Of a DNA stretch of 20,446 nt, positions 11,636 to 12,421 are shown piece by piece; within the stretch, counting starts at the first letter, position 1; every line of letters starts with the position of its first letter. The stretch is from a virus (Duplodnaviria; Heunggongvirae; Uroviricota; Caudoviricetes). The position numbers and the translations under genes were made by a program. The notes beneath the pieces are model-generated. The model had not been told where the DNA came from. It did no database searches and saw only the letters and a program-made list of their open reading frames with translations. The stretch lies in IMG/VR virus record IMGVR_UViG_2529293217_000011, one strand, 5' to 3'.

Positions 11636-11714
11636 ATCACCCTCACAATGTGAACTTTGAGTACATGCTATAACAGAACTGACAGTACATTCAAGAGCGA
11701 ATATCATTGAACTT
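11636..11714. promoter_or_regulatory. Divergent promoter/operator region between the Cro-like and repressor genes with direct repeats GAACT-N3-(G/C)AGTACAT
   Basis: 79-bp intergenic; AGTACAT at 11660-11666 and 11684-11690 within repeated 17-mers GAACTTTGAGTACATGC / GAACTGACAGTACATTC. Confidence 0.5.
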
Positions 11715-12134
11715 ATGGTTCATGAAGATAAAGCGCGTAAAGAGTTCGCCAGTAGGCTTGCGCTAGCCTGTGAAAACGCTGGTTATGAACAACATGGAAG
11801 GCAGGCAGAAATTGCCCGTCGAATGAAATTAACACCAAAAGCGGTTAGCAAATGGTTTAATGGTGAAACAATTCCTCGCCGAGAGAAATTAAGGGAATTA
11901 GCAACACTCATTGGAACAACACCAACCTATCTTTTGGGAGAGGATACAGAAGAAAGTGGACAGATACGTTTCTATCAGGAGTTAAATCCAAGACAAAAAA
12001 TCATCATTGACCTTCTGGACGAGCTCCCTGACAGTGAGACAGATGAACTTTTAAAAACTCTTGAGGAGAAAAAACAGAAGTACAATGCAATTTACGAAGA
12101 GTTAGCACGAAAGAAAAAACAAAAAGCCTCTTAA
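11715..12134 (+). CDS. XRE-family HTH transcriptional repressor (prophage immunity repressor candidate), 139 aa
   Basis: HTH segment GRQAEIARRMKLTPKAVSKWFNGETIPRREKLRELATLIG; charged C-terminal helix (coiled-coil-like) and no S24 peptidase motif; divergent from the Cro-like gene. Confidence 0.75.
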   Translation: MVHEDKARKEFASRLALACENAGYEQHGRQAEIARRMKLTPKAVSKWFNGETIPRREKLRELATLIGTTPTYLLGEDTEESGQIRFYQELNPRQKIIIDLLDELPDSETDELLKTLEEKKQKYNAIYEELARKKKQKAS

Positions 12135-12209
12135 ACCAGCATAAATCCGGTAGCGTCCCCCTCCGGGTTTGTGCTTCACTTTATCCCGTCTCATTTTTTT
12201 ATACATAAA

Positions 12210-12250
12210 ATGTACTTAAAGTACTTTACAATGATGAATACAAAGTACAT
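12210..12250. promoter_or_regulatory. Second operator-like cluster of the same motif downstream of the repressor gene
   Basis: ATGTACT (12210-12216), AGTACTT (12220-12226) and AGTACAT (12244-12250); the first two form an inverted pair around TTAA. Confidence 0.4.
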
Positions 12251-12421
12251 TATATACCTACCAACCCACCCCGCCCCACAGAACGCCGGGCAATACTTCG
12301 AGTTACCAGGCAGTGGTCAGGGGTTAAGTAGCCAGCCCGAGGCGTATGAACATGACGGCGGGATTCAAATTTTGCAGTGCAGCAGTTAGTTCCGCCACCC
12401 GGCGTTAAGGGGATAGATAAG

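What the first reader, a model, noticed from the sequence alone, without database searches (positions are those of the whole stretch)
11636..12252. AGTACAT-family operator motifs on both sides of the repressor gene
Two direct 17-bp repeats containing AGTACAT lie in the 79-bp divergent region between the Cro-like and repressor genes. An inverted pair (ATGTACT / AGTACTT) plus another AGTACAT lies 75-115 bp downstream of the repressor stop. This arrangement resembles an OR/OL pair flanking an immunity gene, with the right-hand set possibly controlling ydaG-ydaF. The direct-repeat geometry at the OR-like site is unusual for a dimeric HTH repressor.
Basis: seen in the sequence. Interest (0 to 1): 0.45.

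Follow-up and report, generated by a model that had tools for sequence, protein, structure and literature searches.

The report
HK022-type prophage operators OR and OL
The repeated AGTACAT motifs are halves of five ordinary phage-repressor binding sites, of the type already known from coliphage HK022, flanking the immunity gene of a Rac-like prophage; the only unusual point is that the repressor has swapped its self-cleaving tail for a short Gifsy-type tail.

Summary
All four AGTACAT copies in the 20.4-kb window lie in the two non-coding regions flanking the 139-aa repressor gene. The OR/OL reading is right, but the "unusual direct-repeat geometry" is not. Each AGTACAT is the stronger half of a 15-bp imperfect palindrome, TG(A/T)ACT-N3-AGT(A/T)CA. 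There are five such sites: OR1 11651-65, OR2 11675-89, OR3 11708-22 (over the repressor ATG), OL2 12211-25 and OL1 12235-49. They align base-for-base with the operators annotated in phage HK022. The spacings are the same (24 and 33 bp at OR, 24 bp at OL), as are the 79-bp cI-cro gap and the pR and pL hexamer positions. The Cro-like protein is 62% identical to HK022 Cro, and the repressor N-domain is 57% identical to HK022 CI. About 40 related loci across Gammaproteobacteria keep dyads at -57/-33/0 from the ATG. K-12 Rac carries RacR-type dyads at the same two positions, so the operator type changes with the repressor. The one non-HK022 feature is the repressor's tail: it lacks the LexA-like cleavage domain and has a ~60-aa helical tail related to Gifsy-2 GtgR. 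This is a new member of a known kind, of low interest.

The parts
11384..11635 (-). Cro-like gene (84 aa; the YdaS position in a Rac-type prophage)
   Evidence: 62% identical over 73 aa to HK022 Cro. RefSeq annotates the same 84-aa CDS. Weak HTH_17 Pfam hit; phrog_35.
11651..11665 (.). OR1, TGAACTTTGAGTACA.
   Evidence: 0 mismatches to TGWACTNNNAGTWCA. 16.5 bits with the HK022-only matrix, rank 2 in the window. Aligns with HK022 oR 3057-71. A dyad at -57 from the ATG is kept in about 40 related loci.
11675..11689 (.). OR2, AGAACTGACAGTACA. It lies in the PR spacer and overlaps the PRM-like -35.
   Evidence: 1 mismatch. 13.9 bits, rank 4. Aligns with HK022 oR 3033-47. 24 bp from OR1, as in HK022.
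11708..11722 (.). OR3, TGAACTTATGGTTCA, centred on the repressor ATG.
   Evidence: Identical to the HK022 oR site 3000-14, which overlaps the cI ATG. Top score in the window, 19.5 bits. 33 bp from OR2, as in HK022. Conserved at position 0 in related loci.
11667..11694 (-). PR-like promoter for the Cro-like/ydaT operon. -35 TTGAAT (11694->11689), 16-nt spacer, TGt-TATAGC extended -10 (11672->11667).
   Evidence: The hexamers occupy the same alignment columns as the annotated HK022 pR -35 (TTGACT) and -10 (CATAAT). It falls below the consensus scanner's threshold, so the assignment rests on homology and reading.
11679..11707 (+). PRM-like promoter for the repressor. -35 CTGACA, 17-nt spacer, -10 TATCAT. 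The -10 ends 7 nt before the ATG, so the mRNA is probably leaderless.
   Evidence: 10 of 12 consensus match. No Shine-Dalgarno sequence before the ATG at 11715. A TATnAT at the same place is conserved in the family alignment. Leaderless repressor mRNAs are reported for paaR2 and lambda cI (PMC8630535). The start site here is inferred.
11715..12134 (+). Immunity repressor, 139 aa. It has an HK022-CI-type HTH N-domain (aa 1-76) and a short helical Gifsy/GtgR-type C-domain (aa ~90-139). There is no S24 peptidase domain.
   Evidence: HTH_3 Pfam hit. N-domain 57% identical to HK022 CI and 49% to phi24B/933W CI; recognition-helix stretch TPKAVSKWFNG against TPKAISKWFNG. The alignment with full-length CI ends before the GDSM/K catalytic region. 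C-domain relatives. Identical or near-identical protein in phages vB_EcoS-673R7 and Tritos.
12138..12175 (+). GC-rich hairpin just after the repressor stop, a possible terminator of the repressor transcript. It has no clean U-tract.
   Evidence: MFE -19.4 kcal/mol, z = -4.0, and 0 of 200 shuffles fold as well. Not called by the terminator scan. Present in Tritos, absent from HK022.
12211..12225 (.). OL2, TGTACTTAAAGTACT. It abuts the PL -35.
   Evidence: 1 mismatch. 16.3 bits, rank 3. Aligns with HK022 oL 2225-39, TGTACTATTGGTACT. In 60+ other copies the half-sites stay constant while the central 3 bp vary.
12235..12249 (.). OL1, TGAATACAAAGTACA. It lies in the PL spacer and touches the -10.
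   Evidence: 24 bp from OL2. Aligns with HK022 oL 2201-15, TGAACTTTAAGTACA. Weak on its own: 2 mismatches and 7.5 bits, rank 12. This window has a rare C->T change in the left half; other copies read TGAAC(A/G).
12225..12253 (+). PL-like promoter, -35 TTTACA, 17-nt spacer, -10 CATTAT. It reads into ydaG, ydaF and probably onward to kilR-recET-xis-int.
   Evidence: 9 of 12 consensus. Same columns as the annotated HK022 pL -35 TTTACA and -10 CATCAT. In K-12 Rac, loss of RacR derepresses ydaG, ydaF, kilR and recE (PMC6765115; bioRxiv 10.64898/2026.09.06.749655).
12422..12722 (+). ydaG (12422-12556) and ydaF (12567-12722), the first genes downstream of the PL-like promoter.
   Evidence: DUF1391 (YdaF) and phrog_14709. 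RefSeq annotation.

Best explanation
The AGTACAT motifs are the better-conserved halves of five 15-bp pseudo-palindromic operators with consensus TG(A/T)ACT-N3-AGT(A/T)CA. They belong to an HK022-type lambdoid immunity cassette, roughly window 11392-12262, that sits in a Rac-like prophage.

Inferred mechanism:
- Dimers of the 139-aa repressor bind through the HK022-CI-like HTH domain.
- At OR1 and OR2 (24 bp apart) they cover the start site and spacer of the leftward promoter PR. This shuts off the Cro-like, YdaT/CII-like and replication genes.
- At OL2 and OL1 (24 bp apart) they cover the -35 edge and spacer of the rightward promoter PL. This shuts off ydaG-ydaF and the downstream kilR-recET-xis-int operon.
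- OR3, centred on the repressor's own ATG and probable leaderless start site, gives negative autoregulation at high repressor levels.
- The Cro-like protein (62% identical to HK022 Cro) is expected to bind the same sites.

Shown here: the sites, their spacing, their homology to the annotated HK022 and 933W operators, their conservation in relatives, and the change of operator type with repressor type.

Inferred only: actual binding, cooperativity, the order in which sites fill, and the route of induction. Because the repressor has a Gifsy/GtgR-type tail instead of a LexA-like cleavage domain, induction would have to go through an antirepressor, or not occur at all.
For: (1) Homology to annotated operators. 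HK022 record X16093.1 annotates oR sites at 3000-14, 3033-47 and 3057-71 and oL sites at 2201-15 and 2225-39. The window sites have the same spacings (33, 24; 24) and the same 79-bp intergenic length. OR3 lies on the ATG in both, and the regions align column for column, including the pR and pL hexamers. [quoted passage not shown]

(2) Independent matrix test. A matrix built from HK022 sites alone picks four of the five window sites as the top four of 20 kb; 0 of 500 null simulations do this.

(3) Protein homology. Cro-like protein 62% identical to HK022 Cro. Repressor N-domain 57% identical to HK022 CI with a nearly identical recognition helix.

(4) Phylogenetic footprint. In 44 loci from one-genome-per-species, nearly all have dyads at -57/-33/0 from the ATG. 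Mean information content is 1.68 bits at half-site columns, 1.27 at the central 3 bp and 0.78 elsewhere in the intergenic region. OL pairs 24 bp apart recur downstream. Within about 80 near-identical copies, changes fall in the central spacers and between sites, not in half-sites.

(5) Covariation with the repressor. K-12 Rac has the same flanking genes but RacR. There, RacR-type dyads (TTAGGC-N3-GCCTAA) occupy both the OR and the OL positions (RacR operators from PMC9638921). Within the family, repressors whose recognition helix starts SSK use CGTACT half-sites (about 30 of 72 half-sites have C at position 1). Those starting TPK almost never do.

(6) All four AGTACAT copies in the window lie here.
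Against: There are no binding or expression data for this protein or these sites.

OL1 is weak by itself (7.5 bits; its left half matches 3 of 6), and the PR -10 (TATAGC) is poor.

The repressor lacks the HK022 C-domain that mediates cooperativity. So the functional meaning of the conserved 24-bp spacing with this tail is untested.

The N-domain is only 57% identical to HK022 CI, so exact specificity could differ.

HK022's extra operators OL3 and OFR (as cited in PMC8053113) have no counterpart here.

The element may be a cryptic prophage in which regulation has decayed.
Confidence: 0.88

Rival explanations
1. The repressor recognises AGTACAT-containing 17-mers as head-to-tail direct repeats, a non-dyad binding mode that would be unusual for an HTH dimer.
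For: At OR the two units GAACnnnnAGTACAT are in the same orientation and 13/17 identical.
Against: Each unit is itself a 6-N3-6 imperfect palindrome: 5/6 complementary pairs in OR1 and 4/6 in OR2. OL2 is nearly perfect (TGTACT-TAA-AGTACT). OR3 has no AGTACAT but is the best-scoring site. The left halves (TGAACT, GGAACT) are as conserved as the right halves across about 40 loci. The same layout in HK022 is annotated as palindromic operators.
Confidence: 0.04
2. The sites are evolutionary relics. They are homologous to HK022 operators but no longer functional, because the repressor lost its native oligomerisation/cleavage domain and the prophage is cryptic.
For: The repressor's C-domain has been replaced. 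OL1 carries a rare weakening substitution in this window. The PR -10 is weak, and polymorphisms cluster there. Rac-type prophages are often defective.
Against: The identical or near-identical cassette occurs in deposited phage genomes (vB_EcoS-673R7, 613R10, 666R9, Tritos). It also occurs, at >=80% coverage, in 1047 of 5426 complete E. coli genomes. Half-sites are nearly invariant among about 80 copies while spacers vary. The replacement tail is a recurrent repressor module, found in Gifsy-2 GtgR and in 38 representative proteins with various HTH domains. That argues for a working repressor.
Confidence: 0.07
3. The motifs are chance features of AT-rich promoter DNA, or binding sites for another factor such as the YdaT/CII-like protein.
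For: The regions are AT-rich and overlap promoter hexamers. The total AGTACAT count alone is not significant.
Against: With intergenic composition, the null gives 0.0025 hits at or above 13.9 bits per 366 nt, against 4 observed. Position and spacing are conserved across genera. The YdaT box is a different sequence, TTGATT-N6-AATCAA (PMC9986795, PMC11879457), and lies at 11374-91, not here.
Confidence: 0.01

Closest known systems
Coliphage HK022 immunity region (cI, cro, OR1-3, OL; Oberto et al. 1989 record X16093.1; Carlson & Little 1993 as cited in PMC8053113)
   Same: The same 15-bp operator type, with OR3 identical in sequence. Three OR sites at 24/33-bp spacing, with OR3 over the cI ATG. 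Two OL sites 24 bp apart over pL. A 79-bp cI-cro gap. Homologous pR and pL hexamers. Homologous Cro (62%) and homologous CI DNA-binding domain (57%).
   Different: The repressor is 139 aa, not about 235 aa. The LexA-like S24 cleavage/oligomerisation domain is replaced by a ~60-aa helical tail. No counterpart of HK022 OL3 or OFR was found. The cassette sits in a Rac-type (recET, ydaT/ydaU/ydaV) prophage backbone and has no nun gene.
933W / phi24B Stx-phage operators (record EF517298.1)
   Same: The same operator family, with three OR and two OL sites and OR3 over the cI ATG (for example CGTACTTTCAGTACG, TGAACTGAAAGTTTT, CGTACTCATGGTTCA). The N-domain is 49% identical.
   Different: 933W half-sites often begin with C (CGTACT), and the recognition helix starts SSK instead of TPK. 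The 933W repressor is cleavable.
K-12 Rac RacR/YdaS switch and CP-933P PaaR2/YdaS switch
   Same: The same prophage backbone and gene order (ydaT, Cro-like gene, short non-cleavable repressor, ydaG/ydaF or a PL operon). The same logic of operators on both sides of the repressor gene, with an operator over the repressor ATG in Rac (PMC9638921, PMC8630535).
   Different: Different operator sequences: RacR TTAGGC-N3-GCCTAA and PaaR2 GTTTAGTAA-type. The repressors are unrelated or barely related; RacR shows only 12/33 identity in the HTH. This is a heteroimmune cassette swapped between junctions at about 11392 and 12262.
Gifsy-type short non-cleavable repressors (GtgR, GfoR, GfhR; Lemire et al. 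2011, PMC3121763)
   Same: Size (136-139 aa). An HTH N-domain plus a short helical tail with the shared motif L-x-L-(F/L)-x-x-L-P-x-x-E. No S24 domain. 25% identity over 101 aa to Gifsy-2 GtgR.
   Different: The DNA-binding domain and operators are HK022-type, not Gifsy-type. No LexA box, dinI homologue or antirepressor gene is visible in the 20-kb window.

Membership tests
HK022/933W-type lambdoid operator set | 15-bp pseudo-palindromic sites with half-site TG(A/T)ACT and a 3-bp centre | tested here: met
   Five sites have 0-2 mismatches. A matrix built from HK022 sites only ranks four of them as the top four in the window.
HK022/933W-type lambdoid operator set | Three sites between cI and cro at 24/33-bp spacing with OR3 over the cI ATG, and two sites 24 bp apart over pL | tested here: met
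   Window centres are 11658, 11682 and 11715, and 12218 and 12242. HK022 annotation gives 3064, 3040 and 3007, and 2232 and 2208.
HK022/933W-type lambdoid operator set | Adjacent repressor and Cro homologous to HK022 CI (DNA-binding domain) and Cro | tested here: met
   N-domain 57% identical. Cro 62% identical, E = 1e-34.
HK022/933W-type lambdoid operator set | Repressor carries a LexA/S24-type autocleavage and cooperativity domain | tested here: not met
   The protein is 139 aa and has no S24 Pfam hit. The alignment with HK022 and phi24B CI ends before the catalytic region. This concerns the protein, not the operators.
HK022/933W-type lambdoid operator set | Additional HK022 operators OL3 (53 bp from OL2) and OFR (about 300 bp downstream of OR) | tested here: not met
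   No site with 3 or fewer mismatches lies in 12135-12210 or 11300-11650.
HK022/933W-type lambdoid operator set | Demonstrated specific, cooperative binding of repressor and Cro | not testable with these tools
   Requires EMSA or footprinting.
Gifsy-type non-cleavable, antirepressor-controlled repressors | About 135-150 aa, HTH plus a short helical tail, no cleavage domain, sequence relation to GtgR/GfoR | tested here: met
   139 aa. BLASTP to Gifsy-2 GtgR gives 25% identity over 101 aa, pairwise E = 4e-10, including the tail motif. phrog_5736 covers aa 27-139.
Gifsy-type non-cleavable, antirepressor-controlled repressors | LexA-controlled dinI-antirepressor module in the same prophage | tested here: not met
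   No CTGT-N8-ACAG in the window, and no better-than-chance extended LexA box. No dinI-like ORF among the Pfam-scanned genes between the Q-like gene and the replication genes. The module could lie outside the window or in another prophage.
Gifsy-type non-cleavable, antirepressor-controlled repressors | Repressor not cleaved on SOS induction and displaced from DNA by an antirepressor | not testable with these tools
   Requires western blots and EMSA as in PMC3121763.
K-12 RacR operators | Inverted repeat (T/A)TAGGC-N3-GCCTA(T/A) (PMC9638921) | tested here: not met
   Absent from window 11636-12260. Present at the equivalent places in K-12.
CP-933P PaaR2 operators | 18-bp palindromes with consensus half GTTTAGTAA (PMC8630535) | tested here: not met
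   No such sequence is seen on reading 11636-11714 or 12135-12260.

The most novel reading that the evidence does not exclude
A complete HK022-type operator set (OR1-3, OL1-2, with the conserved 24-bp spacing that in HK022 serves C-domain-mediated cooperativity) is here run by a repressor whose cleavable C-domain has been replaced by a ~60-aa Gifsy/GtgR-type helical module. If this minimal tail still supports pairwise cooperativity, or OL-OR looping over about 560 bp, and makes the prophage inducible only through a trans-acting antirepressor from a co-resident prophage, then the Rac-like prophage of STEC would be wired into inter-prophage crosstalk. The tail would then be a portable 'antirepressor-receiver/oligomerisation' module that can be attached to many DNA-binding domains. 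In support, 38 representative proteins carry it on diverse HTH domains.
Probability: 0.3. Interest if true: 0.4.

Novelty: new member of a known kind. Interest (0 to 1): 0.2.

Why it matters
This result mainly tidies up annotation. It tells annotators that the immunity region of this very common E. coli Rac-like prophage is HK022-type, with five predictable operators and three promoters. The cassette is present at >=80% coverage in about 1,000 of 5,426 complete E. coli genomes, and also in phages Tritos and 673R7. It is heteroimmune to K-12 Rac and to CP-933P.

It gives a clean natural example of immunity-cassette swapping, with junctions at the ydaT start and just after PL. It also shows domain-level mosaicism inside a repressor gene.

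The practical consequence is that this prophage should not respond to RecA-mediated repressor cleavage. Control of kilR, recET and the YdaT-type toxic genes in STEC therefore depends on this repressor and possibly on antirepressors encoded elsewhere.

Tried and rejected
- Direct-repeat model: rejected once the left half-sites and OR3 were seen to be conserved and homologous to HK022 operators.
- RacR and PaaR2 operator types: looked up in PMC9638921 and PMC8630535 and not present here.
- The search for related loci in viral contigs returned only 80 copies with identical N-domains. These were useful for polymorphism but not for diversity. The genome-contig scan supplied the diverse set.
- Word-indexed protein search with the C-domain found only the same protein. 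The exhaustive HMMER search was needed to find relatives.
- AlphaFold2 single-sequence model of the repressor: mean pLDDT 53.5, so it is not informative beyond predicting helices at 92-103 and 106-137. No fold search was attempted on it.
- The PDB sequence search hit only the P22 C2 N-domain.
- LexA-box searches found nothing.
- Rfam on the whole window found only RalA and two tRNAs, and nothing in the PL leader.
- The terminator scan found none in 11300-12800, although a stable hairpin follows the repressor gene.
- Carlson & Little 1993 (PMC206910) is not held in the library. Experimental HK022 binding is therefore cited second-hand via PMC8053113 and the GenBank annotation.
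Full report
**What the window is.** The 1.5 kb around the finding is 99.9% identical to chromosomal prophages of many STEC and other E. coli strains. RefSeq annotation of one of them and my ORF and Pfam scans give the gene order of a Rac-type lambdoid prophage:
- ydaV (DnaC-like)
- a ydaU-like gene
- ydaT (CII-like; 10962-11384, minus strand)
- an 84-aa Cro-like gene (11384-11635, minus strand)
- a 139-aa HTH_3 repressor (11715-12134, plus strand)
- ydaG, ydaF, sieB, kilR, ydaE, racC, recE, recT, ralR, xis, int

**Checking the observation.**
- The divergent gap is 79 bp.
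- It holds two 17-mers, 13/17 identical and 24 bp apart, each ending in AGTACAT.
- ATGTACT, AGTACTT and AGTACAT lie 76-116 bp after the repressor stop.
- AGTACAT occurs four times in the 20.4-kb window on both strands, and all four are at these places.
- The count alone is unremarkable (expected 1.5). The clustering is not.

**What the units really are.** Nine bases to the left of each AGTACA there is a TGAACT-like hexamer, which is nearly the reverse complement of AGTACA/AGTTCA. Each unit is therefore a 15-bp imperfect palindrome, TG(A/T)ACT-N3-AGT(A/T)CA. Allowing one mismatch or fewer, this pattern occurs four times in the window:
- 11651-65
- 11675-89
- 12211-25

A fifth site, with two mismatches, lies at 12235-49, exactly 24 bp from 12211-25. 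Because I derived the pattern from these same sites, I looked for independent evidence.

**Independent evidence from HK022.** A tblastn search of the repressor against deposited phages showed two things. The protein is identical or 99% identical in Escherichia phages vB_EcoS-673R7, 613R10, 666R9 and Tritos. Its N-terminal ~100 residues resemble the CI repressors of HK022 (46%) and 933W/phi24B (51% over 73 aa).

The HK022 record X16093.1 annotates repressor-binding sites:
- oR at 3000-14 (over the cI ATG), 3033-47 and 3057-71
- oL at 2201-15 and 2225-39
- the pR and pL hexamers

The spacings (33 and 24 bp at OR; 24 bp at OL), the OR3-on-ATG arrangement and the 79-bp cI-cro gap are all the same as in the window. 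The two regions align without gaps:

| Site | Window | HK022 |
|---|---|---|
| OR1 | TGAACTTTGAGTACA | TGAACTTATGGTTCA |
| OR2 | AGAACTGACAGTACA | GGAACTGATAGTACA |
| OR3 | TGAACTTATGGTTCA | TGAACTTATGGTTCA (identical) |
| OL2 | TGTACTTAAAGTACT | TGTACTATTGGTACT |
| OL1 | TGAATACAAAGTACA | TGAACTTTAAGTACA |

The annotated HK022 pR -35/-10 and pL -35/-10 fall on window TTGAAT/TATAGC (minus strand, 11694->11667) and TTTACA/CATTAT (plus strand, 12225-53).

A weight matrix built only from the five HK022 sites ranks the window's OR3, OR1, OL2 and OR2 as the top four of the whole window (19.5-13.9 bits). A first-order Markov null gives 0.09 such hits per 20 kb, and none of 500 simulations reaches four.

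The Cro-like protein is 62% identical to HK022 Cro. The repressor's first 76 residues are 57% identical to HK022 CI, with a nearly identical recognition-helix stretch: TPKAVSKWFNG against TPKAISKWFNG. [quoted passage not shown]

**Conservation in relatives.** A scan of one genome per species with the N-domain alignment returned 44 loci. They come from Enterobacterales, Pasteurellaceae, Vibrio and Pseudomonas.
- Nearly all have three dyads at about -57, -33 and 0 relative to the repressor ATG. In Pasteurellaceae the spacings are the same but the set is shifted about 20 bp upstream.
- In an anchored alignment of 22 distinct sequences, mean information content is 1.68 bits at half-site columns, 1.27 at the central three bases and 0.78 at other intergenic columns.
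- Pairs of sites 24 bp apart recur downstream of the repressor gene, always as TGTACT-N3-(A/G)GTACT followed by TGAACT-N3-AGTACA.
- Among about 80 near-identical copies from IMG/VR, substitutions fall in the central spacers and between sites. The half-sites are almost invariant.
- Repressors whose recognition helix begins SSK (the 933W group) have C at half-site position 1 in about 30 of 72 half-sites. Those beginning TPK almost never do. These sequences are phylogenetically non-independent, so I treat this as supportive only.

**A natural swap experiment.** K-12 Rac has the same flanking genes but a different repressor, RacR. RacR shows only a 12/33 match in the HTH.
- Homology between the two prophages breaks at window ~11392, the ydaT start, and resumes at ~12262, just after PL. 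Outside these points the two are nearly identical.
- Inside the K-12 cassette, RacR-type dyads (TTAGGC-N3-GCCTAA; PMC9638921) occupy the OR position, and two more lie at the OL-equivalent position.
- So the operator type changes together with the repressor on both sides of the gene.
- In K-12, depletion of RacR derepresses ydaG, ydaF, kilR, racC, recE and other genes 40- to 70-fold or more (PMC6765115; bioRxiv 10.64898/2026.09.06.749655). This fits a repressor-controlled PL at this position.

**How it most likely works (inferred by homology).**
- Repressor dimers at OR1 and OR2 occlude PR. OR2 fills the spacer, and OR1 covers the start region.
- Dimers at OL2 and OL1 occlude PL. OL2 abuts the -35, and OL1 fills the spacer and touches the -10.
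- OR3 sits on the repressor's own start codon. The PRM-like promoter (CTGACA, 17 nt, TATCAT) ends 7 nt before the ATG and there is no Shine-Dalgarno sequence. The repressor mRNA is therefore probably leaderless, as reported for lambda cI and paaR2 (PMC8630535), and OR3 occupancy would auto-repress.
- Cro would bind the same sites.

**The one departure from HK022.** The repressor is 139 aa and has no S24/LexA-like domain.
- DNA similarity to an HK022-like, LexA-family repressor gene in E. coli stops near codon 68 (hit H29). The gene is therefore a domain-level mosaic.
- An exhaustive HMMER search with residues 77-139 found 38 representative proteins of 120-185 aa. They carry the same C-terminal module (…LxPRQKILLELFxELPDSEADELLKTLEEKK…) on various HTH N-domains.
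- The Gifsy-2 repressor GtgR (138 aa) aligns over 101 residues, including the start of this module. phrog_5736 also covers it.
- Gifsy repressors are not cleaved. They are inactivated by small, LexA-controlled antirepressors, and homologues were noted in most E. coli genomes (PMC3121763).
- I found no LexA box, dinI homologue or obvious antirepressor gene in the window. How, or whether, this prophage is induced remains open.

**Verdict.** The OR/OL interpretation is right, and so is control of ydaG-ydaF. The 'unusual direct repeat' idea is not supported: these are tandem pseudo-palindromic operators of the well-known HK022/933W type. The cassette is a new member of a known kind. Its only modest novelty is the fusion of an HK022-type DNA-binding domain and operator set to a Gifsy-type non-cleavable tail.

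Noticed in passing
window 11374-11391: A perfect YdaT-box palindrome, TTGATT-TTCATG-AATCAA, overlaps the ydaT start codon. It matches the CP-933P consensus TTGATT-N6-AATCAA (PMC9986795) and differs by one base from the K-12 Rac box (PMC11879457). It sits exactly at the left junction where homology with K-12 Rac ends.
   Followed up: partly
L009 (K-12 ER3413) 2451-2465 and 2476-2490, also 2432-2446: K-12 Rac has RacR-type inverted repeats (TTAGGCATAGCCTAT and TTAGGCATTACCTAT) downstream of racR. They flank a TTGACA at the position equivalent to OL/PL. The RacR papers I read describe operators only in the racR-ydaS gap, so this looks like an undescribed RacR OL.
   Followed up: partly
window 11943-12131 (repressor aa 77-139): The repressor's C-terminal ~60 residues form a module with no Pfam family. 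It is shared by 38 representative short proteins with different HTH N-domains and is distantly related to Gifsy-2 GtgR. It may be a portable oligomerisation or antirepressor-target domain.
   Followed up: partly
window 12138-12175: A stable GC-rich hairpin (-19.4 kcal/mol, z = -4) lies immediately after the repressor stop and has no clean U-tract. It is present in phage Tritos but absent from HK022, so it seems to have come in with the foreign C-domain segment.
   Followed up: partly
window 12235-12240: The left half of OL1 reads TGAATA in this window, but TGAAC(A/G) in every listed OL variant of the 81 other copies examined (no OL string was recovered in 18 of them). This is a rare substitution that should weaken OL1.
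   Followed up: partly
window 11666-11669: Among about 80 near-identical copies, most OR polymorphisms cluster in the 3-4 bases next to OR1. These bases form the end of the PR -10 and the discriminator (TATAGC changing to TATGGC, TATAGA and others). This may reflect drift or tuning of PR strength.
   Followed up: no
window 12262-12421: The ~160-nt leader between the PL-like promoter and ydaG is almost identical in K-12 Rac despite the different immunity cassettes. Rfam found nothing there. A nut-like or other regulatory RNA element was not examined.
   Followed up: no
window 2861-6360: A gene cluster in the nin-like region of the prophage: a HATPase_c_3 protein (463 aa), a Methyltransf_35 putative O-methyltransferase (330 aa) and a convergent C-5 cytosine DNA methylase (383 aa). 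This may be a DNA-modification or defence cassette.
   Followed up: no
window 18143-18321 (minus strand); 532-605 and 709-781 (minus strand): The RalA antitoxin sRNA (Rfam RF02694, 225 bits) lies next to ralR. Two tRNA genes lie near the Q-like antiterminator end of the window.
   Followed up: no
L107, L108 (Arsenophonus) and L115-L117 (Xenorhabdus): Other members of the HK022/933W N-domain family are also short (146-148 aa) and lack an S24 domain. Loss or replacement of the cleavable domain has therefore probably happened more than once in this family.
   Followed up: no
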